Assembly (NCBI GenBank): GCA_040289575.1
Contig: PSLL01000006.1
Coordinates: 24,583 to 88,582 of the forward strand
Source: Candidatus Dadabacteria bacterium
GTDB lineage: Bacteria; Desulfobacterota_D; UBA1144; Nemesobacterales; CSP1-2
Reading direction: 5' to 3'
Length of the DNA: 64,000 bases
Below the pieces are notes generated by a model. It had not been told where the DNA came from and made no database searches. It saw only the letters and a list, made by a program, of their open reading frames with translations. Positions 29,280-64,000 of this stretch are shown here, piece by piece. Made by a program: the position numbers and the translations under genes. Every line of letters begins with the position of its first letter. Positions within the stretch are counted from its first letter, which is position 1.

Positions 29280-29302
29280 TCTCAACAATCTCTGTAATAT
29301 AT

Positions 29303-38502: not shown

Positions 38503-38545
38503 ATTGAGGAGGGGGTTCGAAACCCGTCGCTTCTAAATAAACGAA

Positions 38546-39730: not shown

Positions 39731-39781
39731 AAATTTATATAGGGGCAATTCATGAATTGCCCCTACTGAATCTAAACCCAA

Positions 39782-45946: not shown

Positions 45947-45967
45947 AACTAGAGGGGGAAAAGACGA

Positions 45968-46981: not shown

Positions 46982-46993
46982 GATATTGAATCG

Positions 46994-47017
46994 TAGGGGG
47001 CAAATGGCCGCCCCCTA
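46994..47017 (+). terminator. Stem-loop TAGGGGGC-AAATGGCC-GCCCCCTA after korB
   Basis: 8-bp perfect inverted repeat 13 nt after the korB stop. The downstream U-tract is weak. Confidence 0.35.
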
Positions 47018-47130
47018 CAATGTGTCTGCCCCCCGATTAAGTTATTTAGAACCATAAAGTAGAGTATATCCATTATAGATAGGACATTTCCATAGAGAAA
47101 TGGTATAATTTTTCTTGAGGAAGATTCCGA

Positions 47131-47718: not shown

Positions 47719-47750
47719 AGACAATTAACTCCTGATAAAGACAAAAGGTT

Positions 47751-48787: not shown

Positions 48788-50417
48788 TTAGTAGACAACC
48801 TTAAATATATCCATATCCTTAATTACCCAATTATCAACCGGTCTACTCTTAAAAGACATTATCAAAATGAAGTGTTTAGACCATTCATTATTATAAACCT
48901 CATACAAGTAAGAACGCCTTTTTATATTCTCTGTGTCCAACATCAAGTAACTGATTTGCATTTTTTTAAAATCTTGAATCGCACCCTCTAAGTTATTATA
49001 AATACCGGGTCTAAAGGTAGCCACACCCAATTGCTTGGATGATAAATTTAATAGATTTTTACTACCGATTTTGGAGTCTGTAAGGATCATTTCAATCAAA
49101 TCGCCGCCCTCAACAATCGCTATGTTCCCGTGCAGGTTGCTTGCCGCCCAGATTGCCCAACTATCCCGAACCTTAGGAGTCGCAATGCTTGTACCATTCG
49201 CAATACTCAGATGAATACTCAGTGGGATACGCACAAAAAGTAATAGAATAAATAGCAAAACTAAAATATTATTTCTATTGCCCTCTCTGAGAAGATCAAT
49301 CAAGAATTTCGATGAAATAACAAAAGTAAAGGGTAGCAGTACGTACAAATATCTTGGATTGCCATAAACCTCAAATACAGGGATAAAACCTGCAACGAAA
49401 ACAAAGAAAAGAATAAAAATTAGATCGAATCTTGAAAACCTCTCTAAAATAAGATACTTAATGCCGCCAAGGAAAAATAAGGCCAACCAAACCTCCCCCA
49501 GTAGTAATATAGAATTGATTCGCTACTTTGAACAAACCGTGATAGATAAATTTTCTAAAATAGTCATCAATCTTATGTGTTCTTAAGTAATTAATAAAAG
49601 ATGGGTTAAGGGTACCTTTCAGCGATGCTTGTGTATTGAAGTCTGCAAAGTATTGTGAATTCTTGCCAAAATCAAAAGCGGATCCATATGACTTATATCT
49701 CATATACAGGTCGGGCAGTGACACTAAAAAGAACAGAAATGGCACTAACAGTAGAAATGACCGGCTTAAGTTTGCCTTCTTATACCACAGTAACCACACT
49801 AGATACAGAAGGACAACACCCAGCATAAATATGCCATTGGGCCTCACATAATTTGAAAAACCAGCCAAGATGGTGGCAATGACAATTCTGTGCGATTTGT
49901 TTGCGGAATCCGCCAAATAATACACCGTTGATATAACCAATAAGATAAAGAGCGGTTCACTGTATCCCGAGTATTCCAAGCCGCCTGTACGTATCAATAT
50001 TGGAGAGAGTGCAAAGGCAAAAACAGCAACTATAGAAGATTTTTTATCAGTTAATTTATTAGCAAGGCCAGAAAAAGGGAAAATAGATAAACCCATAATC
50101 AAAATAGACAAAACTCTTGAAAGAATCATTCCATCAAAAATTGATCGGATACCGAATACCTTGAGAAAGGCGGCTAGCACTATTGACCAGCCAATTGAAT
50201 GGCTGTGCATAGGAATCCAATTTCCCTGTGCTATTTCAAAACCCTTTATTAGATAATAATACGCATCTTCCCGCAACACATCATTAAACGGTGTAGAAAA
50301 GGTCATTAATGTGACCATTAAGAGAAAACAAGAGGTTGTAAACCATATATATTTCGAGTATAAGTAGGGAAATGCAATATCTAATTTATTGTTTATATAG
50401 TTAATAGCATCTATCAC
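48788..50417 (-). pseudogene. GT39/GT83-like (ArnT/PMT_2-type) polyprenyl-phosphate-sugar-dependent membrane glycosyltransferase, split by a frameshift near 49460-49490
   Basis: The N-terminal 319-aa ORF carries the PMT_2/ArnT first-loop motif (REDAYYY…). A 232-aa ORF in another frame continues the multi-TM protein. The ORFs overlap at 49458..49486 next to a CCCCC run. Confidence 0.6.
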
Positions 50418-50511: not shown

Positions 50512-51543
50512 TCATTTCCTCCCTTTAACCGTACCACTACTCTTCTTTTTTGATATGAGAAAACCCCAGAAGAAGCCTATTTTATTGGAGATTTCAAATA
50601 AGAACATAAAAGGGAGATATAGTAAGAACTCTCCTACCGAACTAGACTGTCGTGCTCTCCAAAAAGCACTGAGTAATGTACCCGACTTTCCCATAATTCC
50701 CCATAGTATCAACCGAAACGAGCCTACAGAACCGTTCGAGTACTTCTTGTGATAACTCCAACCGTTGCGGCCAGTATCAAAGCACTTACTAACTGTATCA
50801 AGAACGCTCCTTCGACCGTACCGATGCCTGATCCGATGGTAGGGATAATAGTAAACCGGTATGCCTTCGGCACGTAGGCGCCTAGTCATGTCTGTATCCT
50901 CTGCTCTAAGTAGCGATTCATCGAAAAGCCCTACCTTCTGGAAGACTTCCCTCTTGAACGCAGCCCCTCCCGCTGCCTCTAGGTCGTGTTGTGTTGTTAT
51001 TTTTTCTTCTATAACCGACAGCCTTCGCCATCTTCTCTTCAATTTTTCTAACCAGTGTTCATCTAAAATTTCTTCACAAGATAGGCGCCTTCTAACACTA
51101 ACATCAAAGTAGAAATGGCTAACCCTGCTAAAGAAATCTTCCTCGGCTGCAATGATCTTGAATCGCACCACCATTGCACGGGGATTCTCCTGAAAAAACC
51201 TAATTATGGTTTCGGCATAATCAGGAGCCATTATGTAATCGTCAGCCACAATTGCAATTATGCCCCCGGAAGCATTGACAATGCCCGTGTTTCTCGTCGC
51301 CGGGATTCCCTTATGAGTTTGCCGACAGTACTTCAATCCCGGGTGACTCAGTGATATGCTCTCCATCATGCCCTCTGTACCATCTGTTGATCCATCATCT
51401 ACAACTATTATCTCTAGATTTTCCCTCGGTACAGTCTGAGAAAATAATGAATCCAAGCAACCACGGAGCATATCTTTGCGATTATAGGTCAAGACGATAA
51501 TGGATAGCACTCCAGGTTTTCCTCTGGTCATATTCAAATCCAC
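50512..51543 (-). CDS. Glycosyltransferase family 2 with a C-terminal hydrophobic segment (DPM1/GtrB-like polyprenyl-phosphate glycosyltransferase candidate)
   Basis: GT2 N-terminus (LSIIVLTYNRKDMLRGCLDSLFSQTV…EIIVVDDGSTDGT). Confidence 0.75.
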   Translation of the reverse strand: MDLNMTRGKPGVLSIIVLTYNRKDMLRGCLDSLFSQTVPRENLEIIVVDDGSTDGTEGMMESISLSHPGLKYCRQTHKGIPATRNTGIVNASGGIIAIVADDYIMAPDYAETIIRFFQENPRAMVVRFKIIAAEEDFFSRVSHFYFDVSVRRRLSCEEILDEHWLEKLKRRWRRLSVIEEKITTQHDLEAAGGAAFKREVFQKVGLFDESLLRAEDTDMTRRLRAEGIPVYYYPYHRIRHRYGRRSVLDTVSKCFDTGRNGWSYHKKYSNGSVGSFRLILWGIMGKSGTLLSAFWRARQSSSVGEFLLYLPFMFLFEISNKIGFFWGFLISKKKSSGTVKGRK

Positions 51544-51615
51544 GGTTTACACCTACCCCTTGAAATTAGCTTATCAATCATATCTAGAGGTGCATCAAAG
51601 AATAAGACGGTACGA

Positions 51616-52479
51616 TTAAAGGAGATTTCTCATCTTTATCATATCTCTCAGTTTCCAGTATTTCATGCTCAATCGCCAACTGAATCCGAGCAATATCGCC
51701 AAGAAATGAGAGTGCTGCCTTATATCAACTTTGTGCTTTTTCTCGTCCGCAATAATAAATTCCTCACCGTATTTCCTTCTTATGTAATACTCACCCTTGG
51801 TATACCAAACCCTCTGTTTTATTAAACCCACCAGCGAATCTCTACAATCCAGATAGGCGATAATATCGTCTGATTTATACAAATCGATTCCATTTTCCTG
51901 CAAACGGAGATAAAGGTCATAGTCCTCTCTCGATGGGAGTGATTCATCGAATAGCGGATTTATCATCCTTAAGAGTGTTCTCTTAATTGAAAAATTGCCC
52001 GACGACAGTCTGTTTACTCGATAGAGCCTACTGTCTTTCTTATTAAAAACTGCATCGTAGTTATAGAACCAGAAGTTGGAGTAGAAATCGTCCCTTAGCC
52101 TCTTAAGGTTCCCATTGAGCACCATTACCTCGGGATGCTCTTTGTGGACTCGAATTGTCTCAAGAATATAGTTTCGTTCGACTATGCAATCATCATCCAG
52201 GAATATTATAATGTCGCCGGTGCTTTGACTTAGGCCGTAGTTTCTTGCAAAGCTTGGACCTCTATTTCTATCTAACGAGTAGAGTCTGAGAAAAGAATAT
52301 TTTTTATCCAATAGATAGTTCATTTGTTTATCTGCCACACAATCACTATGGTCGTCTACAATGAGTACTTCTAAATTTATTTCTAATCCGTGTTCCCTGA
52401 TCTGTGGAATCAAGGAATTTAATAGATTGGCTAGCTTATTAAATCTGTTATACGTGGGAATAATGATTGAAACCTTCAT
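51616..52479 (-). CDS. Glycosyltransferase family 2
   Basis: GT2 N-terminus (VSIIIPTYNRFNKLANLL…LIVDDHSDC…FLDDDC). Confidence 0.8.
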   Translation of the reverse strand: MKVSIIIPTYNRFNKLANLLNSLIPQIREHGLEINLEVLIVDDHSDCVADKQMNYLLDKKYSFLRLYSLDRNRGPSFARNYGLSQSTGDIIIFLDDDCIVERNYILETIRVHKEHPEVMVLNGNLKRLRDDFYSNFWFYNYDAVFNKKDSRLYRVNRLSSGNFSIKRTLLRMINPLFDESLPSREDYDLYLRLQENGIDLYKSDDIIAYLDCRDSLVGLIKQRVWYTKGEYYIRRKYGEEFIIADEKKHKVDIRQHSHFLAILLGFSWRLSMKYWKLRDMIKMRNLL

Positions 52480-54272
52480 GGTCTTGTTATCTTAACAATC
52501 GCTTCCTCGGGCAGTGCATAAATCCATGTAAGCCCCCGGCGCAAAAGGAATGGGCGTCCAAATAGGTCGTGGAATTGGATCGGATCACTACCGTGAATTC
52601 TGTACCAGGTTGCCCCCTCTGATCTGGGGCCACACCAAATCTGGGCTGGGCCCTCTCCATATGTATCAATTCGCAGCCGTCCCTGAATGTCGCCGGGGAT
52701 GTTGGTCACACGTACCCAAATTAGAACCAGGTTGGCAATCAAGAGATTGGGATCACCCGTTGCATCCTCACCCACCGGCGTATTGAGAACCGTCCGTCGG
52801 AATCCCCCGGCCAAACCGTCCCACTCGAATCGTTCTGGATAGGGAGCACGGGGACGCGAATGGACCTCAATCCGTACTCGCGCCGTTCCCTCGTCATCCC
52901 GAATTGCCTCATCTCGGAAAATAGTAGAGAGTCCCGGACAGTAATGCGCAATTAGATTAATACCTGCTGCTGTTGATTGCTCTAGACCTATAGGGGAAAT
53001 TATGGTCAGTTTATCCAATTGCCCAAAGATACGCTCGGGAACAATAAAGATATTATGCGGAGGAGTCCGCCCGTCTTCTGTCGCAAGAATCTGTGCATTC
53101 TGAAGAACCTCAGGCTCACCAGATGCACCTATATGATAACGGTATTCAATATCAATCACGCGCTCCAGATGCTCGAGAAGAGTCCGTGATTCGGGGCTTC
53201 CACCGCAGTGGACATAGAAAGGCTGATAGGCTCCGGCCCACTCGATAAAATATGGCCGGGCGCTCCGTACCGGTCCCACTCTGTCACTGAAAATCCGGGT
53301 GAAGACAGGCATAAGACGCGTCAATCCACCTTCAACTGGAGCCTCGATGATAAGGGATGCACCAGCCAATCCCAGCTGTGGATGTGAACGGCTAGAGTTG
53401 TCAACCATCACCGCAGGCAAGCCGCACCAGAGGTCAATTCTATTTTTATCACCATCAGATGCATTGCTTCTTACTACCATTGGAAAAGACGCCACGCGAG
53501 TTTCAGGAAGTATCCAGTCAAATGCGGCACTGAAGGCATAAGTCTCAGGCAGTCGGCGATCGGCAAGCCGGTGATATTCCATAAGTAACAGATACAATGG
53601 CCTGTATAAGAATCGTGACCTCAGCACCAGTCGGCATAAGAGCAGATAGAGACTCAAGATTCGGGATCGATGTCCCAGTTCATTATTGAACATCCACAGC
53701 GCCGTCACCGGCTGAAGGAGGCTGCTCTTGTTGACTGTAATCGTCTCGTTCTCAACGAATCCCTCATGCTGAAGGAGGAATTTCGTGTACCGGAGCGAGC
53801 GAAGACCATAATATCCCACGGCGTCTATGTGATGACGAGTATATTCTTCTGGAAAGCACTTTGCCCAACGAATAATGGGTTTCGATGAATCCAGGTCTAC
53901 AAAGAAAATCAAACGCCCGCCCGGACGAAGCACACGTTTAATCTCGCGCAATGCGGCGACGAATTGCCTCTCAGTTAGGTGCTCGAACATCCAAATACTC
54001 ACCACCGCATCCACTGAACGATCTGATAAAGGCAGCCGCTCGACCTGTGAACGAATGACCCGATTGTATATTGATGCGGCGCTCTGAAGCGCCCCGGCGC
54101 CATAATCCACTCCCGTTACACGTCCAAATTCTGTCAGAAATTCCCAGCCGCCACCGCAACCCAAGTCAACGATCTCTAATGGATAACGACCAAGCCGTGC
54201 CAGCATCGGTCGCAAAAGATGGGTATGCCCCAGTGGATATTCCGCCGGAGCAACCACCCCAACGGTCCCCAA
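52476..54272 (-). CDS. Class I SAM-dependent methyltransferase fused to a ~400-aa C-terminal domain of unknown function (possibly DUF3048-like); GC-rich compositional outlier
   Basis: Motif I VDLGCGGGW and post-I LRPGGRLIFFVDL. The C-terminal domain contains GGLTRLMPVFT…GPVRSARPYFIEWAGAY. Local GC is visibly higher (~55%) than the flanks (~35-40%). Confidence 0.7.
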   Translation of the reverse strand: MGTVGVVAPAEYPLGHTHLLRPMLARLGRYPLEIVDLGCGGGWEFLTEFGRVTGVDYGAGALQSAASIYNRVIRSQVERLPLSDRSVDAVVSIWMFEHLTERQFVAALREIKRVLRPGGRLIFFVDLDSSKPIIRWAKCFPEEYTRHHIDAVGYYGLRSLRYTKFLLQHEGFVENETITVNKSSLLQPVTALWMFNNELGHRSRILSLYLLLCRLVLRSRFLYRPLYLLLMEYHRLADRRLPETYAFSAAFDWILPETRVASFPMVVRSNASDGDKNRIDLWCGLPAVMVDNSSRSHPQLGLAGASLIIEAPVEGGLTRLMPVFTRIFSDRVGPVRSARPYFIEWAGAYQPFYVHCGGSPESRTLLEHLERVIDIEYRYHIGASGEPEVLQNAQILATEDGRTPPHNIFIVPERIFGQLDKLTIISPIGLEQSTAAGINLIAHYCPGLSTIFRDEAIRDDEGTARVRIEVHSRPRAPYPERFEWDGLAGGFRRTVLNTPVGEDATGDPNLLIANLVLIWVRVTNIPGDIQGRLRIDTYGEGPAQIWCGPRSEGATWYRIHGSDPIQFHDLFGRPFLLRRGLTWIYALPEEAIVKITRP

Positions 54273-54502
54273 CCACGCTGCTCTCGGTACGACGTTGTCC
54301 AGCGGCTATCATGCGGAATATCACCCTCGACGAATCTGGCAATACCGTCTTCCACCAGCCAGGGACCGTGACCCGCTGTGCACACTAAAGTTCCCCGACC
54401 GTTTTTTACATCACACTGAAGGGCAATGTGACAATCGGGGCAGATCAGATCATCGGATCGGAAGGACATAAGGTTGTGAACCCTATCATATAGAACATTC
54501 AT
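54176..54502 (-). CDS. Trm112-like zinc-ribbon ORF overlapping the annotated start of the methyltransferase (possibly its frameshifted N-terminal domain)
   Basis: LICPDCHIALQ…LVCTAGHGPWLVEDGIARFVEG matches the Trm112/YcaR CPxC…C…(aromatic)x[IV]xDGI[PA]x[FLM][LV] pattern. The 3' half of the ORF overlaps the MTase ORF in another frame. Confidence 0.45.
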   Translation of the reverse strand: MNVLYDRVHNLMSFRSDDLICPDCHIALQCDVKNGRGTLVCTAGHGPWLVEDGIARFVEGDIPHDSRWTTSYREQRGWGPLGWLLRRNIHWGIPIFCDRCWHGLVVIH

Positions 54503-54511: not shown

Positions 54512-55426
54512 TCATGAATCTCTATGTCGAATCTCTAAATTCGGCATCCCCCAGCACTCATACCCCATATCATGAGCCATCATACCTAAACCCTCTGTTT
54601 CTATCTCTCCAATATAAATTCCTTTCAAAATATGTAGGATCTCTCTTCGTGCTTCTAGTATATTTCCTTTTCTTATTCCTCTTAGAGCACTTAGTACCGC
54701 TCTCCTTATTATGGCTCTTTTTGGTTCAAGGTAATGGTTTCCCCTTATAAGTGGATTTTTTCTACCATACAAGAACGGAGGGAAAATCAACCCGTCTCTA
54801 TGAATATCCGCTTTTATTAAAAGCATGGTCCCACCCACAGCATGTAATTTTACTAGATCACTCTCATTTCTTAGGTCATGCATGTGTAATTTCCCTTTAT
54901 CCCTCCAGGCATTCAGATCGAAGCTCATACAGCCGTATTGCGTTAAGCAATACGGCTGTATGATGTCTTTTCCGGTTGCTAAAAGTTTTTCTATAATATC
55001 AGGAGGATACTCAATGACATCAACATCTATCCACAGGACCCAATCCTCATCATCAAGTGCATGAAAAAGGAGATGGTTTCGACTCCTTGCAAGTATAGTT
55101 CTTCTCTCTATTTGGATGTGTCCGGCCCATCGGGGTGTGCCCGGCGGTATATGAAACCCAAAATCCCTTTTCCACAGCCTAGCAGACCGGAACTCTTTTC
55201 TTAGCCCCGAAAGTGATTTTTCCAATTCAAGATAGGTGTTGTCTACGCTATCGCCTTCCAAGAATCCGAGGGAGATCAAGTTATGTGGGTAGGTTAATTT
55301 ATAGAGGGACTGAAAATAGGTTTCTAAAAACGCTTCGGCATCTTTAACCGGAGTTAATATAAGAACCTTGTCCCTATATTCCATAGCCACCCACCCTCCT
55401 CTATTTTCATGATAGGAAGTAATCAA
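54512..55426 (-). CDS. GT62-like glycosyltransferase (Anp1/Mnn9/Van1 family alpha-1,6-mannosyltransferase homolog)
   Basis: Several blocks match the fungal mannan-polymerase family: KVLILTPVKDAE…LTYPHNLISLGFL; DWVLWIDVDVIEYPPDII; HAVGGTMLLIKADIHRDGLIFPPF; ETEGLGMMAHDMGYECWGMPN. Confidence 0.65.
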   Translation of the reverse strand: MITSYHENRGGWVAMEYRDKVLILTPVKDAEAFLETYFQSLYKLTYPHNLISLGFLEGDSVDNTYLELEKSLSGLRKEFRSARLWKRDFGFHIPPGTPRWAGHIQIERRTILARSRNHLLFHALDDEDWVLWIDVDVIEYPPDIIEKLLATGKDIIQPYCLTQYGCMSFDLNAWRDKGKLHMHDLRNESDLVKLHAVGGTMLLIKADIHRDGLIFPPFLYGRKNPLIRGNHYLEPKRAIIRRAVLSALRGIRKGNILEARREILHILKGIYIGEIETEGLGMMAHDMGYECWGMPNLEIRHRDS

Positions 55427-55640
55427 CCGGAATTGATATAACTAGCTCTTTCATAAATATCAGTATTATATTGTGTAGTCTCATATCGATACCATTGATT
55501 GAGTATTGTTTCAAGCTTCCGGTAGAATCTGCTTTACCACATTCGACCAAGCTCGATCAATTAATATAAGTTTGGGTACTTTCTTGGTTAGATCATTCAT
55601 TATTTCCTGTTTGGTGCTCTTCCTTGCAATAAAGGTCAAA

Positions 55641-57030
55641 TTAAAATATCGGCTTGCTGATCTCCTCTGGGAATAAGCCTGGACTGGATTTGTTTGTATG
55701 ATCTCCTAATATGTATATGTAATCGTTGTTTTTAGTGTGTTCCTTTATCCATAGACCTAGCTGTTTATATCGCCCATATTCATCGTCGACACCTTTAATA
55801 TTTATACTATAAAACCTGTAAAGGGTTTGGTATGGTGCCCACAATATTGCTATTATGACTATAGTCTGGACGATGTATCTTCGCCTCTCTGTTTCTCCAA
55901 TTAAGTTAGCTTGAAATAACACATTGATTGCTATTCCAGAGGCGAGCGCTATCGACGGTAGAATTTGTTTGAATTGATGTCCCAAATAATATCCAGATGC
56001 ATTTACACCTAGAAAATCCAAGCCGATCCAGAAAACAATGCCTCCAAATGGTATCTTATTATCTATTATCCTTTTTTCTGGACAATAAATAGTAAGATCA
56101 ATGGATAGAATAAAACTATTTTAGAATGTCCCCAAGCATCAATAAACTTCCCAATCCTTATTTTATAATCGGCACTGCCCCCTTCCTTCTGCATTAAAAT
56201 TAACCATGCATCCTTGAAGTAATCAATCATAGTAACGCCACTTGCCAAAAGAGGAATTAAACTGAGACACATAGGAAACACAACAGCTGCGAATAAGAGA
56301 AATGAATCTCTAAAAGTACTTTTATAGGTTAAGGAACGTTTATCACCTAAGCCTAATAAAAATGCAAATAGTGCAATAGCACTAAGTATTGCAGTTTGCT
56401 TAAAAGCAATTGCGATTCCCATAAAGAATCCAGCAATTAAGGTGTCTCTAATATATAATAAAAGGCTTCTTGCTTCCTGGGCCTTTAAAAGAAATAAGAA
56501 AGCGAGAGTTGAAAATAAAACCATGAATGATTCAGTCTGTGCGGTATATGCTCCATCCATCAGCCTTCAAATCATGCTGAAGCCAAAGAGAATCATAGTG
56601 AGGACACCAACTAAATGATTGCATAATTTTCGTCCAATTATATAAAGTAAAATTGAAGTCGTAACAATAGATAAGCTAGCCAGAATTCTCGGAAACCAAA
56701 TATTTAGATCGAATAGAAGATTGGAAATGACAAATACTATATAGATGCCCGGAGTCTTATTCTCAATGGCTCCGATGTATAGAGGAATCCCATACTTAAT
56801 CCATAGAAAAGCAATATAATTCCACATCCCCTCGTCATTGCCCATGTATTCACTGAAAGATGCAATTAGAAGCAGGGAAAAATAATTATTGCTACTATAA
56901 TAGGACTGGTCACAACCCTATAAAGACTATTATATAAACCCATCTTATTCATACTTTTCGGTCTCAAAAAATAATCTCTTGTCAAGACCAATTCTTTCTC
57001 CAAATGACTATTTACATGGAAAGAAAGCAT
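55641..57030 (-). pseudogene. Second GT39/GT83-like (ArnT/PMT_2-type) membrane glycosyltransferase, broken by two frameshifts and an in-frame TGA
   Basis: Consecutive minus-strand pieces: 56863..57030 (first TM helix), 56567..56845 (DEGMWNY…ENKTPGIY loop motif), 56066..56560 and 55641..56021. A TGA at 56567-56569 separates two pieces in the same frame. Confidence 0.6.
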
Positions 57031-57131
57031 TATTCACCTCTATCTATAGCCGTATCCGTTCCCTGAATAGCCACCTAAGGTTCTATGTATGTAATCACAA
57101 CTAGATGAGAATAGGCTAAATTATAAAGTAA

Positions 57132-57935
57132 CTACTCGTAATCCTTAGACAGATAGTGCGAAACCACTTTGCGGGTTTCGTCATTGATCACAATCCTTCC
57201 TTTACTTAAAAGAATCGCTCTATCACAGAGGTTCTCAATTGCTTTCATATCATGGCTTACAAAAAGCACCGTTCGTCCTTCAGATGCTACGTCCTTCATC
57301 TTATTGAGGCACTTCTCCTTAAATGCCCCGTCTCCTACCGCTAAGACCTCATCCAACAGCATAATCTCTGGCTCCAGGTGTGTGGCAATGGCAAAAGCAA
57401 GGCGCACATTCATACCGCTTGAGTAGTGCTTAATTGGCGTATCTAAAAAATCCTCTACTTCTGAGAATGCCACAATTGCATCGAATTTGCGGTTGACCTC
57501 TGCCCTTCTCATCCCCAAGATTGTGCCACCGAGGTATATATTCTCCCTTCCTGTCAGTTCGGGATGGAAGCCGGTACCAACCTCAAGCATCGAACCCATC
57601 TTACCATAGATTTCAGCATAGCCCTCCGTTGGCTTTGTAATCCGAGAAAGAATCTTAAGAAGAACCGATTTACCGGCGCCGTTAGAGCCGATTATGCCCA
57701 CCACCTCGCCACATTTAACCTCAAAGGAAACATTCCTTAATGCCCAAACGTATTTGTCATCTTCTGATCGCCGTCTGCTGTGATTATTCGTTCCATAACG
57801 AATGGCAGAGGAAAAACGACGAAATGGTGCGCGCATGACGTCCTCTAAGAATTCGCGCATGGCGTTGGTCGCTCTCGGCCGATCTATAAGAAAGCGCTTG
57901 CTAATACCTATAGCCCGAATTGCGAGGTTACTCAT
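57132..57935 (-). CDS. wzt: Polysaccharide/O-antigen ABC exporter ATP-binding protein (Wzt/TagH/KpsT type, no C-terminal carbohydrate-binding domain)
   Basis: Walker A GSNGAGKS, ABC signature YSSGMNVRLAFA, and the typical N-terminal region of glycan-export ATPases. 267 aa. Confidence 0.85.
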   Translation of the reverse strand: MSNLAIRAIGISKRFLIDRPRATNAMREFLEDVMRAPFRRFSSAIRYGTNNHSRRRSEDDKYVWALRNVSFEVKCGEVVGIIGSNGAGKSVLLKILSRITKPTEGYAEIYGKMGSMLEVGTGFHPELTGRENIYLGGTILGMRRAEVNRKFDAIVAFSEVEDFLDTPIKHYSSGMNVRLAFAIATHLEPEIMLLDEVLAVGDGAFKEKCLNKMKDVASEGRTVLFVSHDMKAIENLCDRAILLSKGRIVINDETRKVVSHYLSKDYE

Positions 57936-57938: not shown

Positions 57939-58796
57939 TTACACCACATCGGCAAAGGCATCTTCTTTATATCTGAAGAAGTATAATCCCCCTACAAGTA
58001 GTGCGATTACCACTATAATTGAAAAAGTAAGTAGCATAGTTGGAGGATGTGTCTTTCCTAAAAGCGCCCATCTGAAACCCTCGACTACACCAGCCATTGG
58101 ATTAAGGCCGTAAATCGCCCGCCATCGTTCCGGCACCAGGCTACTCGGATAGGCAATAGGGGTTGCAAAGAGCCATATTTGAGTCAGAAATGGCAGAGTA
58201 AATCCCACATCCCGATACCTGACATTCAAAGCAGCCAACCACAACCCAATCCCCAAAGCCGTTGCTACTGCTAGTATGATAAAAAGAGGCAGCGCCCACA
58301 AAGCCATTGTTGGAACAATCCCATAAAACAACATCATTCCAATCAGCATGACAAACGTTATTGCGAAATCCAAAAACCCAGTTATCACAGTAGTCATTGG
58401 AATTATAAGCCTTGGGAAATAAACCCTAGTAATCACAGCCCTATTATTTACCACGCTGTTGCTTGACTGGGTCAATACATTGACGAAATATGTCCATGGC
58501 ACAAGCGCACTGTATGCAAATATAGGGTAAGAAATCCCTTCGGAAGGCACCCTTGCCAGTTTGCCAAAGAATACGCTTAACACCACCATGGCGATAAAAG
58601 GCTGGATGACAGCCCATGATGCACCAACTATAGTCTGTTTGTATCGCACCTTAATATCACGCCACGCAAATAAGTAGAGCAAATCCCGGTACTCCCATAA
58701 CTCACGGAGGTTGAGCAAAATCCCCCTACTCGTAGGTCGAATTATAGTCGTTGGGCAATCAGATGAATCTACACCTATGAATTTGATCCCTTTCAT
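57939..58796 (-). CDS. wzm: ABC-2 type polysaccharide export permease (Wzm)
   Basis: Six TM helices with the Wzm N-terminal motif (YRDLLYLFAWRDIKVRYKQTIVGASWAVIQP). The start is placed at the internal ATG 58794-58796, which has an AAAGGA RBS 5 nt upstream. The longer ORF (to 58928) would overlap the upstream GT2 by 124 nt. Confidence 0.8.
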   Translation of the reverse strand: MKGIKFIGVDSSDCPTTIIRPTSRGILLNLRELWEYRDLLYLFAWRDIKVRYKQTIVGASWAVIQPFIAMVVLSVFFGKLARVPSEGISYPIFAYSALVPWTYFVNVLTQSSNSVVNNRAVITRVYFPRLIIPMTTVITGFLDFAITFVMLIGMMLFYGIVPTMALWALPLFIILAVATALGIGLWLAALNVRYRDVGFTLPFLTQIWLFATPIAYPSSLVPERWRAIYGLNPMAGVVEGFRWALLGKTHPPTMLLTFSIIVVIALLVGGLYFFRYKEDAFADVV

Positions 58797-58804
58797 TGTT
58801 CCTT

Positions 58805-59488
58805 TCACAGTTGCCATTGCACAAATAGGGATTTCAGCCAACGCTTTATTCGGATCCGGTTTGCCATTTGCAAGCCGAGTGCATGACGGAGCGGTTCTGA
58901 CAGATCCAACAATAATTGATACCTCCATGACCTTCGGCTTTTATAAAAATATATAAACTCATCAATAAAATGCTCTCTCTGTAAAGCCCCGTCCCAACAG
59001 ATTCTCATAGCCCAGTCAATATCCTCAGAATAGCTTATATCCTCAAATTTATAACGGAGTGCAATTTCGCGTTTCATCGGGTTAAGATGATACGGCGGTC
59101 TGAAGTATACCCCTCCCCTTGAGAAATACTCTCTGTATCGTAGTGAATGTATGAAAATGCGCGGTTTTTTTCCACCAAAGGTAATTATGCCCTTGATCCC
59201 GATACAATCAATATCCAGATTCTCTCTTATCACACTACAAATGAGAGGAATGTAATTGTTGCTAACATCATCGTCGTCATCAATGAAAGCGACGAATCTC
59301 CCCCTTGCCCTCTCTATAAGCCTATTTCTCTTGAATCCAAGTGAGTATTCCCTGTTGTCTAAGAGATACAAAATCTCTACTTCATCGGCAAGGGAATTAC
59401 CGGTTATTTGATTACTCAGTTTTTCATATAGTCTATGAAATTGTTCCTTTCTGCTATCGAGAGTCGGTATGAGAATACTGAATAGCAT
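58805..59488 (-). CDS. Small glycosyltransferase family 2 (227 aa)
   Basis: GT2 N-terminus (FSILIPTLDSRKEQFHRL…FIDDDDDVSNNY). Confidence 0.7.
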   Translation of the reverse strand: MLFSILIPTLDSRKEQFHRLYEKLSNQITGNSLADEVEILYLLDNREYSLGFKRNRLIERARGRFVAFIDDDDDVSNNYIPLICSVIRENLDIDCIGIKGIITFGGKKPRIFIHSLRYREYFSRGGVYFRPPYHLNPMKREIALRYKFEDISYSEDIDWAMRICWDGALQREHFIDEFIYFYKSRRSWRYQLLLDLSEPLRHALGLQMANRIRIKRWLKSLFVQWQL

Positions 59489-59498
59489 TTATAAAGTC

Positions 59499-60353
59499 TC
59501 AGTTATGATTATCTTTATTTGCACTTACTGGTATTTCCAGCCAGTGTGAAAGGTCGCGCCTCAGGATGTCCTGAGTCTGTAATATATCCTCCCGGTAATA
59601 TTCAATCAGCCACTCACGCACCTCAGTCTGAAGCTCCGGTTTTCTTAGATTGCTTTGCCTAAGTCCCCCTAGAATCACGTCCCAGACCTTTAGTCGAAGT
59701 TTTAGTCGAGTCTTCTCAGATAAGAACGGTCTCAATATATCCGAGATAAAATTCGGCTGAGTTAGAAAGGTGTTAAGCTTCACATTTATTGGATAACCGG
59801 AGACATTATGTCTGGCTGGGGCCTTGATCACAAGTTTCCCATCCAAATCAAGGAATTGAACTATACTCTTGATTAATTCCCTTGGATTCCGCTGCAAATC
59901 CTCAAAGAGGAAAACCCCAATCTGCTCATGGCAAAAAAGAGACAAATATCGCGCAATCTGTTCAGCGTAAAGCCCCATTCTTCGATAAAACCAGAACGGA
60001 GACCAACCATTACGCATCCTTTCTTCCTCCGCATTGATCGCTTCTCTAAAATCATCGAGATTTTCATACTCCAAAAGTCTGTGATGGAGAAAGTGAGAGT
60101 ATGCCCTGTCTATTGGATTGCGCAGGATAGCTATGATTTTGACATCCGGTATATAGTGCTTAATTCGATAAGGGGCTTTTGGGCTATAAAGGTAAAGAGG
60201 AGAAGCTTCTCCAATAGCCTTCTCATCCCGAACCCCGGAAAAGAGAGAACAATAGGTTTTAATGTCTCGTATCCCTTGGTTATCTTTAGGTCCCCGAAAC
60301 GGTTCGCTTTCCCCTTCGACCGCAAAGAATAGTGGCTCCTTTATAGAACTCAT
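59499..60353 (-). CDS. Sulfotransferase-family protein lacking the N-terminal 5'-phosphosulfate-binding loop (probably truncated)
   Basis: 3'-phosphate-binding motif RNPIDRAYSHF and the IKEPLFF region typical of PAPS sulfotransferases. No K-x-G-T-T loop is encoded. The ATG overlaps the TGA of the upstream GT4 fragment (ATGA). Confidence 0.6.
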   Translation of the reverse strand: MSSIKEPLFFAVEGESEPFRGPKDNQGIRDIKTYCSLFSGVRDEKAIGEASPLYLYSPKAPYRIKHYIPDVKIIAILRNPIDRAYSHFLHHRLLEYENLDDFREAINAEEERMRNGWSPFWFYRRMGLYAEQIARYLSLFCHEQIGVFLFEDLQRNPRELIKSIVQFLDLDGKLVIKAPARHNVSGYPINVKLNTFLTQPNFISDILRPFLSEKTRLKLRLKVWDVILGGLRQSNLRKPELQTEVREWLIEYYREDILQTQDILRRDLSHWLEIPVSANKDNHN

Positions 60354-61108
60354 GAAAATCTGCGGGTTCCGATTACGTGTAAATGAATATCCTCACCATG
60401 CAACCTCACTTCCGACAATATATCTATTATATTTTCTAATCTCTTCTCACCAGAAATCCTCCCAATGCATACAAAACCATTCTCTCTCTCCTGCCAGGGC
60501 ACATCTGGGAAGAGACCGGGAACTGGAGGATATACAGTTGTCGTCTCAATTCCATAAGATTCTCTGCACTTGATTCCGGTCCAGTCCGAATTTACCAGGG
60601 TGAGGTTCTCTTTCATTCTTTCAAACGAATAACCCGAAATCGCCATCCATGGCCGGTACTGACCACGCACTATACCCCATAGGCATTGATACCAAGGAAG
60701 ATCAACGAACTGCTGGCATATAGGCTCGAATCGAGGAAACCAGGGGTAGTGAACATATTGGATTCCCCTGCAGCCGAGGTCAGCCTCCCCGTTGGCGGTG
60801 ATAATAACATCGTAATCGCCATTCATCTTCTTGCACAGGCGCATGAGAAAGGCAAACTTTTGTGCGCTGTGGGGGTCGGGGTCAAGCTCTATTAAACCGC
60901 GTATGAGCCGGGGAGTATAATAGACCTTGAAATCAGATGAGCTGAGAGATGTTCCAAAGAACCGGTTGATCGCGGCAACACTAACGGGTGCCCAAGTCAG
61001 AACAGAAACCGAGTTTTCTCGTTTCAGAGCTTCAATCATCCATACTGCCACAGCATTTCCACCGCCCAGTGGCTCAAGGCTGGGCTGCACAAGTAAGACC
61101 TTTTTCAT
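60350..61108 (-). pseudogene. N-terminal two-thirds of a GT4 glycosyltransferase (paralog of 62150..63331) lacking the C-terminal catalytic half
   Basis: ~60% identical over 250 aa to the N-terminal domain of the 393-aa GT4 at 62150..63331 (…NLTLVNSDWTG…TTVYPP.P..FPDVPW.ERENGFVCIGR…HLH.IGT). It then terminates where the full copy continues for ~140 aa. Confidence 0.65.
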
Positions 61109-61129
61109 CGAGGACGTCTATGAAATCGG

Positions 61130-62146
61130 CTACAGACTTATGCCAGGCAATTTTAAATTCTCACATTCCGCTTCAACTGTTGGAGCAGATATACTGCCAT
61201 CTCCTGCGGAACGCAGCATATTCAAACTATCCTGTAAATTGTACTCCCACTTATCCAATAGATGATTCATGATTTTTGGGTTGTCGGCTAACTCTCTGAT
61301 GGAGCGTCTTGGCACACCGCCCGTAGGAGATATACCCAGCGGAAGGTCCTGCCATATTACTCCATCAAAATAAGCCTGCATATTTCGCCAAAATAATTCA
61401 TGGGATTGACTTGCTAGAGCCATGTCAAAGACATTTTTAGCATACATATACTCCTTATTCCACATATATGACAGGTTATTTCTCCTATATAAATCCGCCC
61501 TTGACTCCAGCTTCTTAAGGTAGTTCACAGGAAAAATCGCCCGATACCTGTAGAACGGCTGGGGTAAGTAGTAGGTGTGCTCTCCCTTCGCGTACAGCAA
61601 ATAATCCCTTAGTTTACGGGAGCGAAACACAAAACGCTTGAGGTCGTAACCGACATCATAGGCATCGCCTTTTGAGATTATATATTCCTTGTTTTTAAAT
61701 AGCCTCCTCCTAAAATCCACAATCCAGAGTAGTCTACTCCCCATTATGTTATAGAACGGCAATCTGAACATCTCCACGTCTGGGTAAAGAACGGGTAGGT
61801 TTCTGATCTCTTCTAGGGAGGATTCATGTATTATCTCGTTTGCCTGAACATAAAGACAGTAACTGCCAGTACATCTCTGTTTTAAAAGATTGGTCATCGT
61901 CGCAAGGATTTCACCCCTCTCCGTTTTGCCCCTCCATTCGTCTCTGAAGAGTCTGACCTTGCCGGGGAACCTTCTCTCTAAAATTTGCAAGGCTTTCCAT
62001 GTCTTATCCGATGAATAGCCTTCGGATATAAGGAACTCGTCACAAATAGGCAGAGCGGCTGTTATAGCCTCTATAAACGGGTATCCCTGCGATACGACGT
62101 TTTTCAATATCATAAAGCCCGATATGGTCACTTTTTCTACAGGCAT
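61130..62146 (-). CDS. Putative GT-A-fold glycosyltransferase, uncharacterised (338 aa)
   Basis: N-terminus ISGFMILKNVVSQGYPFIEAITAALPICDEFLISEGYSSDKT resembles uncharacterised GT2-like proteins of glycan loci. The call is weak. Confidence 0.35.
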   Translation of the reverse strand: MPVEKVTISGFMILKNVVSQGYPFIEAITAALPICDEFLISEGYSSDKTWKALQILERRFPGKVRLFRDEWRGKTERGEILATMTNLLKQRCTGSYCLYVQANEIIHESSLEEIRNLPVLYPDVEMFRLPFYNIMGSRLLWIVDFRRRLFKNKEYIISKGDAYDVGYDLKRFVFRSRKLRDYLLYAKGEHTYYLPQPFYRYRAIFPVNYLKKLESRADLYRRNNLSYMWNKEYMYAKNVFDMALASQSHELFWRNMQAYFDGVIWQDLPLGISPTGGVPRRSIRELADNPKIMNHLLDKWEYNLQDSLNMLRSAGDGSISAPTVEAECENLKLPGISL

Positions 62147-62149
62147 GGT

Positions 62150-63331
62150 TTACACCCATCGAGTCTTCTGGAATTGTCTTACGATTTCCTGAATATCACT
62201 CATAAATTTCTCTGTCGAGAACAGCTCTTTTCTTGATCTCAAGTAGTCAATCAATGACATTTGCTCATCTGGATTCTCTATCACGCGTACAATCTTCTCG
62301 TTTGCTTCCTCTTCAGTCCTATAAACCAGACGTTCATCCCCTCCTACAATCTCCAACTGCCCGCCGCTGTTATGAACAAAGGCTATACAACCCGCTTTGA
62401 TCATCTCTCCCACCGCAATCCCGAAATGTTCCTCTATGTTTGCGTGAATTCCGTACCTGTGCCTGGAAATCAGATTTATAAGCTTCTCTCTCGATAAGTT
62501 TTCGTGTAAGAGAACCCAAGGAGAATTTTCTCTTACAACTCTTATAAGTCTTGAATAATATTCGCTTTCACCTATGAATGGGCTAGGGGTTCCTATGATA
62601 TGTAAATGGAGATCGGGGATTCTCGCCCTGACCTTTGCAAGAATCTCTATTATCGTCTCAAATCTCTTCCCAGGGCAGAATCTCCCAATACAGACAAACC
62701 CGTTTTCCCTCTCATTCCAGGGAACATCAGGAAATTTGTCAGGAATCGGGGGATAAACTGTTGTAGCATCAATCCCGTAACGTTCCTTAACTTTATTTCC
62801 CGTCCAATCCGAGTTAACGAGGGTAAGATTATCTTTCATCCGATTGTATGAAAAACCTGAAATCAGCATCCAGGGCCTATAACTGCCTTTCAATGCTTCC
62901 CAAAACTTTCGATGATGAGGCAAATCAATATCGGGTTGAATCTTTCCGTATAAATAAGGATAGTGAAAATACTGTATTCCCCGACATCCGAAGTCTATTT
63001 CATTCTCGGTGGAGATTACTACATCATATTTGCCATTCAACCTCTTGCATAAGCGCATCAGGTAGCTCTGCCTCTGAATACTTGCGGGATCGGGGTCTAG
63101 GTTTATAATGCCACGCAAAACGGGGTTAATATGATGCACAGTAAGCTCTGAACTCTTAAGTGAAGTGCCGTAGAAGCGGTTTATCTCCTCGAAATTAGGA
63201 GATTTCCAGGTTAGTAATGAGACTGAATACTCCTTCTTCAACGCCTCAATCATCCAGGCCGCAACCGTGTTTGCGCCCCCAGGGGGTTCAAGAGTGGTTT
63301 GAACAAATAAGACTTTTTTCATAGATGACAT
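62150..63331 (-). CDS. Glycosyltransferase family 4 (full-length copy)
   Basis: GT-B N-terminal domain plus a C-terminal Glycos_transf_1 domain (…EHFGIAVGEMIKAGCIAFVHNSGGQLEIV…). Confidence 0.8.
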   Translation of the reverse strand: MSSMKKVLFVQTTLEPPGGANTVAAWMIEALKKEYSVSLLTWKSPNFEEINRFYGTSLKSSELTVHHINPVLRGIINLDPDPASIQRQSYLMRLCKRLNGKYDVVISTENEIDFGCRGIQYFHYPYLYGKIQPDIDLPHHRKFWEALKGSYRPWMLISGFSYNRMKDNLTLVNSDWTGNKVKERYGIDATTVYPPIPDKFPDVPWNERENGFVCIGRFCPGKRFETIIEILAKVRARIPDLHLHIIGTPSPFIGESEYYSRLIRVVRENSPWVLLHENLSREKLINLISRHRYGIHANIEEHFGIAVGEMIKAGCIAFVHNSGGQLEIVGGDERLVYRTEEEANEKIVRVIENPDEQMSLIDYLRSRKELFSTEKFMSDIQEIVRQFQKTRWV

Positions 63332-63354: not shown

Positions 63355-64000
63355 CTACATGACACGTTCATTCTTTCTCTCCCAGTTAATGTACTTAAAC
63401 TTGTTAAAATACGTGTTGAATACATCGGCAAAATCGCCATGTAATATTCTGTCAGCCACATACTTAAACTGATGGATCAATCTTTTTGAACGATATGCAG
63501 GTATCAAAATATCCGTCTTTTCTTTATTGTCGGATGCGAATAATTTTATCTTTTCAACTATATAAGGGAAAAGCTGATAACGGTACAATACGAGATTTCT
63601 GGCCTCCTCTAAAGCCGAAATACGCTTTTCCTAGTCATCCCGATCTATAATCTCCCTTATCTTTTTCAAACTAGCCTCTGGTTGATCTACATCAATTCGT
63701 ATAAAAGACTCTTTGGGAAAATACTCCTCTAGATTCGTACAACCATAGTATATGGGAACCGTCCGGGTAAGAAAGCAATCCGCTACTTTTTCTGTCCAGT
63801 AATCAGGACCGCTACTGTTCTCAACCGCAAGCGAGTATTTATACGGAGCCAGTCCGTCCCACTTGTCCTTGACACATCTGATTCCTCTTCCGAATACGTC
63901 TATATTGAACCTGGCATTTTGCCTGAGGAAATCCAAGAGTGCCATCTTTTTCCTATGCCCCGGAAGAAACGTCAGTTTGCTTGTAACCCAAGATATAGCC
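63355..64000 (-). pseudogene. GT10 (alpha-1,3/4-fucosyltransferase-like) gene, C-terminal part, with an in-frame TAG at 63631-63633; the N-terminus lies beyond the window end
   Basis: GT10 signature YKYSLAVENSSGPDYWTEKVADCFLTRTVPIYYG. The frame is open upstream of the listed Met to position 64000. A TAG separates two ORFs that are in the same frame (…IREIIDRDD*EKRISALEEARNLVLYRYQLFPYIVEK…). Confidence 0.6.

What the first reader, a model, noticed from the sequence alone, without database searches (positions are those of the whole stretch)
54512..55426. Bacterial homolog of the fungal Golgi mannan polymerase subunits (Anp1/Mnn9/Van1, GT62)
The 304-aa protein aligns block-by-block with signature regions I recall from yeast Mnn9/Anp1: VLILTP.KD…LTYP..LI.LGF; SWVLW.D.DI.E.PP; (L)DGVGG…L.KA.VHRDG..FP.F; IETEG…YLVYH. 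CAZy family GT62 is almost exclusively eukaryotic, so a GT62 member inside a bacterial Wzm/Wzt glycan locus is unusual. It suggests inter-domain transfer or an ancient shared alpha-mannosyltransferase fold.
Basis: partly seen in the sequence, partly recalled or inferred. Interest (0 to 1): 0.75.

Follow-up and report, generated by a model that had tools for sequence, protein, structure and literature searches.

The report
Bacterial Mnn9/Anp1-type (GT62) glycosyltransferase gene
The gene really does encode a bacterial relative of the yeast Golgi mannan-polymerase enzymes, but such relatives turn out to be widespread, uncharacterised enzymes of bacterial surface-sugar gene clusters rather than a rare oddity.

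Summary

The protein has no membrane anchor. It sits in a minus-strand operon of soluble glycosyltransferases, a sulfotransferase, Wzm/Wzt and a methyltransferase, in a diderm Candidatus Dadabacteria genome.

The "almost exclusively eukaryotic" premise is not borne out. I found more than 2,400 homologue clusters and 257 bacterial or archaeal species genomes, including cultured Azospirillum, Streptomyces and Aphanothece. One 2022 paper already used a rhizobial homologue as an outgroup.

A recent transfer from fungi is excluded: about 35% identity to Mnn9 against 55–85% to other prokaryotes. Deeper history is unresolved.

The most interesting by-product is that the stand-alone bacterial GT62 genes lie next to GT71 (Mnn2-type) genes in 18 of 80 loci. 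A second, distinct set of bacterial proteins fuses a GT62 domain to a GT32 (Och1-type) domain.

Verdict: a new member of a known but biochemically untested bacterial branch.

The parts
54512..55384 (-). GT62 (Anp1/Mnn9/Van1-family) glycosyltransferase gene, 290 aa, with no signal peptide or TM segment
55395..55400 (-). Shine-Dalgarno-like AGGAGG, 10 nt upstream of the ATG at 55384
   Evidence: Read directly from the sequence. It agrees with the 290-aa gene call for the identical protein P0001.
55019..55027 (-). Codons for the DxD motif D120-V121-D122 (290-aa numbering), equivalent to Mnn9 D236-A-D238
   Evidence: Alignment to 3zf8. D120 is invariant and D122 is >=90% conserved in 41 homologues. 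D236 is essential in Mnn9 (PMC3787745).
54524..54526 (-). Codon for H287, equivalent to the Mn2+-ligand His389 of Mnn9
   Evidence: Aligned and invariant in alignment A1. His389 is indispensable in Mnn9.
54605..54766 (-). Insertion of about 54 residues (207-260) relative to Mnn9, predicted as two helices. It is basic and amphipathic, so a candidate membrane-association element.
   Evidence: Gap in the Mnn9 alignment between FPPFLY and IETEG. Helices at 222-238 and 242-253 with pLDDT 71-79. 13 K/R against 4 D/E, and the highest hydrophobic moment of the protein (0.63, net charge +5). Its length varies or it is absent in homologues. The function is inferred only.
57132..57935 (-). Wzt-type ABC ATPase (267 aa, no extra C-terminal domain)
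   Evidence: PF00005 E=7.8e-23. Its orthologue directly abuts the GT62 gene in L001, L002 and L006 (Aphanothece).
57939..58928 (-). Wzm-type ABC-2 permease (the real start is probably about 58808-58817)
   Evidence: PF01061 E=1.7e-17. 4 or more hydrophobic segments. Called as 289-292 aa in L081 and L082.
55641..57030 (-). Remnants of a GT-C (PMT_2) membrane glycosyltransferase gene, broken into ORFs of 54, 92, 164 and 126 aa, inserted between Wzt and GT62
   Evidence: ORF list. PF13231 hit E=1e-8. Split 54/92/306 in L081. Absent in L001, L002 and L006.
52476..54502 (-). SAM-methyltransferase + DUF3048 (YerB-like) gene starting 10 nt after the GT62 stop. It is split by a frameshift in the window (108 aa + 598 aa).
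   Evidence: Pfam Methyltransf_11 and DUF3048. A single ORF of 686/675 aa in L081/L082. A 25-bp deletion and small indels relative to L081. YerB 2psb E=3e-18.
50512..52479 (-). Two soluble GT2 glycosyltransferase genes (51616-52479 and 50512-51543)
   Evidence: PF00535 E=4e-24 and 2e-29. No TM segments.
48788..50417 (-). Terminal multi-TM GT-C (PMT_2-like) gene, split in the window (319 + 232 aa) but 542/509 aa in L081/L082
   Evidence: Weak PF13231 hit E=1.3e-5, just under the cutoff. 9 hydrophobic segments. Intact ORF.
58805..63331 (-). Upstream part of the same operon: a 227-aa GT2-like protein (58805-59488), a sulfotransferase (59499-60353), a truncated GT4-like protein (60350-61108), a 338-aa protein with a sub-threshold GT2_4 match (61130-62146; E=0.0027, 18.6 bits against a 27.5-bit cutoff) and a GT4 (62150-63331)
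   Evidence: Pfam. The 227-aa GT2-like protein recurs near GT62 in 16 of 80 loci. The window lacks 2.4 kb present in L081 at about 60364-60378.
63631..64000 (-). 3' part of a GT10 (fucosyltransferase-like) gene that runs off the window
   Evidence: PF00852 E=6.5e-13. GT10 genes occur in 15-16 of the 80 GT62 loci.

Best explanation
The gene encodes a genuine bacterial member of glycosyltransferase family GT62. This is a retaining, Mn2+-dependent GT-A enzyme, most likely using GDP-mannose to add alpha-linked mannose to a growing glycan.

Unlike the yeast Golgi enzymes it has no membrane anchor. It should work on the cytoplasmic face of the inner membrane, possibly held there by a basic amphipathic insertion. 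There it would act alongside the soluble GT4/GT2/GT10 transferases and the sulfotransferase of the same operon on a lipid-linked intermediate. The finished chain would then be exported by the adjacent Wzm/Wzt ABC transporter, as in the ABC-transporter-dependent route used for O-antigens, capsules and S-layer glycans.

Shown: family membership, fold, conservation of the catalytic and mannose-pocket residues, absence of TM segments, operon context, and recurrence of the Wzm-Wzt-GT62 arrangement in other genomes.

Inferred: the donor sugar, the linkage (alpha-1,6 by analogy with Mnn9/Van1/AnpA), the lipid carrier, the membrane-binding role of the insertion, and the final acceptor.
For: Family and fold:
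- PF03452 E=2.3e-53.

Catalytic residues shown essential in Mnn9 (R209, D236, D280, H389; PMC3787745) map to R94, D120, D156 and H287. R210 and T365 map to R95 and T263. All are invariant or >=90% conserved in 41 homologues.

Location and operon:
- No TM segment in GT62 or in any operon glycosyltransferase except the GT-C pieces.
- Same-strand operon with 10-nt spacing to the next gene.
- Wzm/Wzt are present.
- The order GT4, GT2-like, Wzm, Wzt, GT62 is conserved in L001, L002, L005 and the cyanobacterium Aphanothece hegewaldii (L006). In L006 the Wzt stop overlaps the GT62 start.

Mannose link: GT71 Mannosyl_trans3 genes lie next to GT62 in 18 of 80 loci. A separate group of bacterial proteins fuses GT62 to GT32 (PF04488).

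Bacterial host: MlaD, OEP, AnmK, PurH and other housekeeping genes are in the window. The gene is identical on 5 contigs.
Against: - No biochemical data exist for any prokaryotic GT62, so donor and linkage rest on homology at about 32-35% identity to Mnn9.
- Mnn9 E305 could not be aligned, and the Mnn9 hairpin loop (I262-N283) is about 7 residues shorter here.
- No GDP-mannose synthesis genes, initiating phosphoglycosyltransferase or ligase were detected in the window. This was a weak motif test only.
- Wzm/Wzt accompany GT62 in only about 9 of 80 loci, so the export route is not a family-wide feature.
- Several neighbouring genes are frameshifted in this assembly, so the pathway may be partly decayed in this strain.
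Confidence: 0.7

Rival explanations
1. The enzyme has the GT62 fold but a different specificity. On this view the bacterial branch transfers another sugar (for example Gal, Glc or a hexosamine from a UDP-sugar) rather than mannose.
For: The next-best structural relatives are UDP-Gal-using collagen galactosyltransferases (GT25). The operon contains GT10, a sulfotransferase and GT2/GT4 enzymes of unknown specificity. No GDP-mannose genes were seen in the window. Identity to Mnn9 is only about 32-35%.
Confidence: 0.2
2. The gene is a eukaryotic (fungal) contaminant in the metagenome bin, or a recent acquisition from a fungus.
For: The family is described in the literature as fungal (PMC5225481), and the window comes from a metagenome-assembled genome.
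Against: - The gene lies inside a tightly spaced bacterial operon flanked by bacterial housekeeping genes.
- It is identical on 5 contigs from different samples.
- It has a Shine-Dalgarno site and lacks the type-II anchor of the eukaryotic enzymes.
- It is 55-85% identical to proteins of 257 prokaryotic genomes, including complete genomes of isolates, but only about 35% to Mnn9.
- GC content of the locus is like that of its surroundings.
Confidence: 0.02
3. The protein is a non-catalytic partner or scaffold, comparable to the allosteric role that Mnn9 plays for Van1, or the pathway is decaying and the gene is on its way to becoming a pseudogene.
For: Mnn9 activates Van1 independently of its own catalysis (PMC3787745). 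Three neighbouring genes are frameshifted and 2.4 kb is deleted in this assembly.
Against: Every catalytic residue that could be aligned is intact and the ORF is unbroken and identical in all 5 contigs. Only one GT62 gene was found among the window ORFs I scanned (27-64 kb), so no Van1-like partner is evident.
Confidence: 0.05

Closest known systems
Saccharomyces cerevisiae Mnn9 (GT62; PDB 3ZF8), with Van1/Anp1 and Aspergillus AnpA
   Same: Same Pfam family. GT-A fold superposes at 1.6 Å over 220 residues. The DxD motif, the C-terminal Mn-ligand His, the RR pair, the D of the (Y/F)D(F/L)N.W motif and the IETEG threonine are all conserved. It is therefore expected to be a retaining, Mn2+-dependent, GDP-Man-using alpha-mannosyltransferase.
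   Different: - No N-terminal type-II membrane anchor or stem, so it is cytoplasmic rather than in the Golgi lumen.
- Shorter hairpin loop.
- The roughly 40-residue segment after the hairpin in Mnn9 is reduced to about 11 residues.
- It carries an extra insertion of about 54 basic, amphipathic, helical residues before IETEG.
- Single copy in the scanned part of the window, with no evident hetero-oligomer partner.
- The acceptor is presumably a lipid-linked bacterial glycan, not an N-glycan.
ABC-transporter-dependent polymannan O-antigen pathway of E. coli O8/O9a (WbdA/B/C GT4 mannosyltransferases, WbdD terminator, Wzm/Wzt). Comparison drawn from established knowledge.
   Same: Soluble cytoplasmic glycosyltransferases are encoded with Wzm/Wzt. 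A methyltransferase gene lies immediately downstream of the candidate mannosyltransferase. GT4 enzymes are in the same operon.
   Different: - The candidate mannosyltransferase is GT62 (GT-A), not GT4 (GT-B).
- Wzt is short (267 aa) and lacks the carbohydrate-binding domain that reads a terminal methyl or phosphate cap.
- The methyltransferase is fused to DUF3048, not to a kinase or coiled coil.
- Sulfotransferase, GT10 and GT-C genes are present.
- No WecA or WaaL was identified in the window.
Multidomain bacterial glycosyltransferases carrying a C-terminal GT62 domain (for example Streptomyces WP_376465335.1 and Azospirillum lipoferum 4B WP_014189957.1)
   Same: Same GT62 catalytic domain (about 45-50% identity) with the same motifs. 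Cytoplasmic, without a TM anchor.
   Different: Those proteins fuse GT32 (Och1-like IHQTWK motif) and GT2 domains, sometimes also GT1/GT28, upstream of GT62. The window protein is a stand-alone single domain, and none of the 80 stand-alone loci has a GT32-motif ORF.

Membership tests
CAZy GT62 / Pfam Anp1 (PF03452) | Significant match to the family profile above the curated threshold | tested here: met
   181.8 bits against a gathering cutoff of 28.8, E=2.3e-53. dbCAN/CAZy itself is not available here.
CAZy GT62 / Pfam Anp1 (PF03452) | GT-A fold with Mnn9 as the closest solved structure | tested here: met
CAZy GT62 / Pfam Anp1 (PF03452) | DxD motif (Mnn9 D236-x-D238) and C-terminal His (H389) that bind Mn2+ | tested here: met
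   D120-V-D122 and H287 align to them and are conserved in 41 homologues.
CAZy GT62 / Pfam Anp1 (PF03452) | Mannose-pocket residues R209, R210, D280, E305, T365 of Mnn9 | tested here: inconclusive
   R94, R95, D156 and T263 align and are conserved. E305 lies in a segment that does not align.
CAZy GT62 / Pfam Anp1 (PF03452) | Unique beta-hairpin extension (Mnn9 I262-N283) | tested here: inconclusive
   The region is present but about 7 residues shorter (PYCLTQYGCMSFDLN against [24 protein letters not shown]). Only short strands are predicted there.
CAZy GT62 / Pfam Anp1 (PF03452) | GDP-Man-dependent retaining alpha-1,6 (or alpha-1,2) mannosyl transfer requiring Mn2+ | not testable with these tools
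   Needs an enzyme assay. No prokaryotic member has been assayed in the literature I could search.
Fungal M-Pol I/II Golgi mannan polymerase subunits | Type-II membrane topology (N-terminal TM anchor + luminal catalytic domain) | tested here: not met
   The catalytic domain starts at residue 6 and the maximum 19-residue hydropathy is 0.99. Eukaryote-like homologues have N-terminal hydrophobic segments scoring above 2.0.
Fungal M-Pol I/II Golgi mannan polymerase subunits | Hetero-oligomer of two or more GT62 paralogues (Mnn9 with Van1 or Anp1) | tested here: not met
   Only one PF03452 gene was found among the ORFs scanned at 27-64 kb. The first 27 kb of the window was not scanned. Physical interaction cannot be tested here.
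ABC-transporter-dependent (Wzm/Wzt) glycan pathway | ABC-2 permease and ABC ATPase encoded with cytoplasmic glycosyltransferases | tested here: met
   PF01061 and PF00005 genes are in the same operon. All glycosyltransferases except the GT-C pieces are soluble. The Wzt-GT62 adjacency is conserved in L001, L002 and L006.
ABC-transporter-dependent (Wzm/Wzt) glycan pathway | Initiating polyprenyl-phosphate glycosyltransferase, plus a ligase or other acceptor-transfer step | tested here: inconclusive
   None was recognised in the window by Pfam scans of the operon or by crude motifs. The operon continues beyond base 64000, and such genes are often unlinked.

The most novel reading that the evidence does not exclude
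The three glycosyltransferase families that build the yeast outer-chain mannan are GT32 Och1/Hoc1, GT62 Mnn9/Van1/Anp1 and GT71 Mnn2/Mnn5. They also work together in prokaryotes as cytoplasmic mannan synthases, seen as GT62 next to GT71 in operons and as GT32-GT2-GT62 fusion proteins. On this reading, bacterial GT62 enzymes such as this one make yeast-like alpha-mannan backbones exported by ABC transporters. The fungal Golgi machinery would then descend from, or have been exchanged as a set with, such a bacterial cassette.
Probability: 0.25. Interest if true: 0.7.

Novelty: new member of a known kind. Interest (0 to 1): 0.42.

Why it matters
GT62 is treated in the fungal cell-wall literature as a fungus-specific family and as an antifungal target. 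A large, well-conserved prokaryotic branch offers simple, soluble, single-subunit enzymes for working out GT62 mechanism and linkage control. It encodes soluble enzymes with every alignable Mnn9 catalytic residue intact, sits in polysaccharide operons, and is present in cultivable bacteria.

Its repeated pairing with GT71 and fusion to GT32 makes the origin of the eukaryotic Golgi mannan machinery testable. It also predicts yeast-like mannans on bacterial surfaces. Such mannans would matter for lectin and immune recognition (Dectin-2, DC-SIGN, mannan-binding lectin; from general knowledge) and for mannan-degrading gut and soil microbes.

The individual gene in this window is an ordinary member of that branch.

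Tried and rejected
- Foldseek against AFDB50 was unavailable.
- Looking up the contig through the neighbouring GT4 protein failed, probably because the gene call uses a different start. The GT62 protein itself worked.
- NJ tree of 200 GT62 domains. It gave three groups (eukaryote-like, GT32-fusion, stand-alone prokaryotic), but bootstrap support was only 8, 1 and 15 of 100. I therefore make no claim about the direction or age of inter-domain transfer.
- Motif search for GDP-mannose or GDP-fucose synthesis and initiating-transferase genes in the window found nothing credible. Pfam of ten more window ORFs showed only housekeeping genes.
- I considered that the two GT2 genes plus the GT-C gene form a GtrB/ArnC-type polyprenyl-phosphate-sugar system. 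I rejected this because neither GT2 has a TM segment.
- I considered that the downstream methyltransferase is a WbdD-like chain terminator. This stays speculative: the adjacency is seen only in close relatives (L002, L081-L083) and Wzt lacks a cap-binding domain.
- PDB sequence searches of the 227-aa GT2-like and the 338-aa operon proteins gave nothing useful.
- Several guesses at which neighbours carried PF11051 were wrong before the right cluster was found.
- There is no homologue in the phage collection.
- No GT32-motif ORF occurs in the 80 stand-alone loci.

Full report
**The feature.** A minus-strand ORF runs from 55426 (TTG) to the stop at 54512, giving 304 aa. The identical protein in public data, from a Candidatus Dadabacteria MAG, is 290 aa (P0001). 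The ATG at 55384 is preceded by AGGAGG at 55400-55395. The gene is therefore best placed at 54512-55384.

**Is it an Anp1/Mnn9 homologue?** Yes, by every test available.
- It matches Pfam Anp1 (PF03452) at E=2.3e-53, 181.8 bits against a 28.8-bit threshold. The only other hit is a sub-threshold GT2 match.
A profile of 41 homologues raises this to E=5.7e-35.
- An AlphaFold2 model built on that alignment is confident (pLDDT 90.1, pTM 0.87).

**Catalytic machinery.** The Mnn9 paper shows that R209, D236 (first Asp of the DxD), D280 and H389 are each required for activity. It names R210, E305 and T365 as further pocket residues (PMC3787745). The 3zf8 chain index plus 90 gives the Mnn9 residue number; I checked this through the D236N mutation visible in the chain. 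The mapping is:

| Mnn9 residue | This protein | Local motif |
|---|---|---|
| R209, R210 | R94, R95 | |
| D236, D238 | D120, D122 | WVLWIDVDVIEYPP |
| D280 | D156 | FDLNAW (Mnn9 YDFNNW) |
| T365 | T263 | IETEG |
| H389 | H287 | |

All are invariant or at least 90% conserved among 41 prokaryotic homologues. E305 falls in a segment that does not align.

The protein differs from Mnn9 in four ways:
- The hairpin loop is about 7 residues shorter.
- The roughly 40-residue segment after the hairpin is much shorter.
- An insertion of about 54 residues (207-260) precedes IETEG.
- There is no N-terminal anchor.

The insertion is predicted as two helices. It is strongly basic (13 K/R against 4 D/E) and holds the most amphipathic stretch of the protein. 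Its length varies among homologues. I read it as a possible membrane-surface anchor, which is inference only.

**Context.** The gene lies in a long minus-strand operon. The gene order is:
1. GT10 fragment at the window edge
2. GT4
3. A 338-aa protein with only a sub-threshold GT2_4 match (E=0.0027, below the Pfam cutoff)
4. A truncated GT4-like protein
5. Sulfotransferase
6. A 227-aa GT2-like protein
7. Wzm
8. Wzt
9. A broken GT-C (PMT_2) gene
10. GT62
11. A methyltransferase-DUF3048 fusion, starting 10 nt after the GT62 stop
12. Two GT2 genes
13. A multi-TM GT-C

None of the transferases except the GT-C pieces has a hydrophobic segment. That fits cytoplasmic assembly followed by ABC-transporter export.

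The rest of the window carries ordinary bacterial genes, including MlaD, an OEP/HlyD pair, AnmK, a GH3 enzyme, PurH and a 2-oxoacid:ferredoxin oxidoreductase. This indicates a diderm bacterial chromosome. GC content of the locus is unremarkable.

**Assembly differences.** The GT62 gene is identical on five contigs from different samples. The neighbours differ. Relative to two other assemblies (L081, L082), the window lacks 2,426 bp upstream and 25 bp inside the methyltransferase gene, and it has four small indels. These explain three split ORFs.

**How unusual is it?** Not very, in sequence space.
- The 90%-identity database holds 2,430 matching clusters. The top 120 are 57-100% identical, all carry PF03452, and those with source names are bacterial MAGs.
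- The 50%-identity library holds 1,310 clusters at E<=1e-3 and 261 at E<=1e-30.
- A scan of one genome per prokaryotic species, using only two peptide patterns, found 257 genomes.
- The best 80 of these span Acidobacteriota (the largest share), Chloroflexota, Alphaproteobacteria, Actinomycetota, Bacteroidota, Cyanobacteria, Abditibacteriota, Planctomycetota, KSB1, Calditrichia and others.
- They also include three Bathyarchaeia MAGs, and they include isolates and complete genomes.
- RefSeq annotates homologues in Streptomyces and on Azospirillum megaplasmids simply as 'glycosyltransferase'.

In the literature I could search, one 2017 study states that PF03452 occurs only in fungi (PMC5225481). 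A 2022 study used a Mesorhizobium Mnn9 homologue as an outgroup (PMC9769593). I found nothing on the function of any prokaryotic member.

**Partners elsewhere.** I compared the 80 loci.

| Partner near GT62 | Loci of 80 |
|---|---|
| GT4 gene of about 400 aa, usually directly downstream | 52 |
| Small GT2 | 23 |
| PF11051 Mannosyl_trans3 (GT71, the Mnn2/Mnn5/Mnn1 family), adjacent | 18 |
| The 227-aa GT2-like protein | 16 |
| GT10 | 15-16 |
| Close Wzm/Wzt pairs | about 9 |

The order GT4, GT2-like, Wzm, Wzt, GT62 seen in the window recurs in L001, L002 and L005. It also recurs in the cultured cyanobacterium Aphanothece hegewaldii, where the Wzt stop overlaps the GT62 start.

Many homologues are multidomain: GT2-HEAT-GT62 in Acidobacteriota, GT4-GT62 in a Bathyarchaeia MAG, and GT32(PF04488)-GT2-GT62. 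The GT32-fusion type forms a large group that includes Streptomyces and Azospirillum proteins. GT32 motifs are absent from the 80 stand-alone loci. The GT71 link therefore belongs to the window's group, and the GT32 link to the other group.

In yeast, GT32 (Och1/Hoc1), GT62 and GT71 together build the outer-chain mannan. Their recurrence together in prokaryotes supports a mannosyltransferase role and is the most interesting by-product of this work.

**Evolution.** In conserved columns the window protein is about 35% identical to Mnn9. Its group averages 58% identity internally and 44% to the eukaryote-like group. A contaminant or a recent fungal acquisition is thus excluded.

An NJ tree separates eukaryote-like proteins, GT32-fusion proteins and stand-alone prokaryotic proteins. 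The eukaryote-like group is N-terminally anchored and includes Mnn9 and an amphioxus protein. Bootstrap support for these splits is only 8, 1 and 15 of 100. The direction and age of any inter-domain transfer remain open.

**Verdict.** The gene is a new member of a known family, in a prokaryotic branch that is catalogued but untested.

The most likely function is a cytoplasmic, Mn2+-dependent, GDP-mannose-using alpha-mannosyltransferase that builds a surface glycan exported by Wzm/Wzt. My confidence is about 0.7 overall. It is about 0.97 for family membership, about 0.7 for mannose as the sugar, and lower for the alpha-1,6 linkage.

Noticed in passing
window 55427-57131: A GT-C (PMT_2) membrane glycosyltransferase gene between Wzt and GT62 is broken into ORFs of 54, 92, 164 and 126 aa. 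It is still split 54/92/306 in other assemblies, and it is absent from related loci L001, L002 and L006, where Wzt abuts GT62. It looks like a decaying insertion.
   Followed up: partly
window 52476-54502, 48788-50417 and about 60364-60378: Compared with assemblies L081 and L082 of the same organism, the window lacks 2,426 bp (parts of GT4 and sulfotransferase paralogues; the junction has a 15-bp overlap). It also lacks 25 bp inside the methyltransferase-DUF3048 gene and has 4 small indels. This splits three genes. A JGI contig (L084) is 100% identical to the window, so the variant was assembled independently.
   Followed up: partly
loci L021, L023, L025, L030, L031, L038, L047, L051, L052, L057, L062, L065, L066, L068, L069, L075, L077, L079: Genes of Pfam PF11051 (Mannosyl_trans3, GT71, the yeast Mnn2/Mnn5/Mnn1 family) lie next to the GT62 gene in 18 of 80 prokaryotic loci. 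The taxa are Acidobacteriota, Alphaproteobacteria, Bacteroidota and Chloroflexota.
   Followed up: partly
P0178, P0157, P0163 (Streptomyces WP_376465335.1); L085 10390-12759 (Azospirillum lipoferum 4B WP_014189957.1): Large bacterial proteins fuse an Och1-like GT32 domain (IHQTWK motif, PF04488), a GT2 domain and a C-terminal GT62 domain. Some also carry an N-terminal GT1/GT28 domain.
   Followed up: partly
P0259 (XP_035670100.1, Branchiostoma floridae): An amphioxus protein annotated 'mannan polymerase complex subunit mnn9-like' falls in the eukaryote-like GT62 group. The family is therefore not restricted to fungi among eukaryotes.
   Followed up: no
L003 6202-7098, L004 3863-5977, L014 3324-3941: GT62 homologues 58-65% identical occur in three Bathyarchaeia (archaeal) MAG contigs. 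One of them is a GT4-GT62 fusion.
   Followed up: no
L001 and L002 (whole loci): MAGs labelled Ignavibacteriales and Spirochaetia carry the same operon as the window, with proteins mostly 74-88% identical (a few lower, down to 57%). This points either to recent lateral transfer of the whole cluster or to mis-binned or mis-labelled MAGs.
   Followed up: no
window 52476-54502 (intact form L081 10883-12943): An unusual fusion: a Cys-rich N-terminal segment, a class-I SAM methyltransferase, and DUF3048 (B. subtilis YerB-like; PDB 2psb, E=3e-18), directly downstream of GT62. Its role is unknown.
   Followed up: partly
window 37585-41305; 27412-31045; 36390-37421; 44075-48782: Housekeeping clusters: a SIS-domain MurQ-like protein with AnmK and GH3 (peptidoglycan recycling), HlyD with an OEP outer-membrane factor, MlaD, and a 2-oxoacid:ferredoxin oxidoreductase with ferredoxin and a Zn-dependent alcohol dehydrogenase. 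These are consistent with an anaerobe-like diderm host.
   Followed up: no
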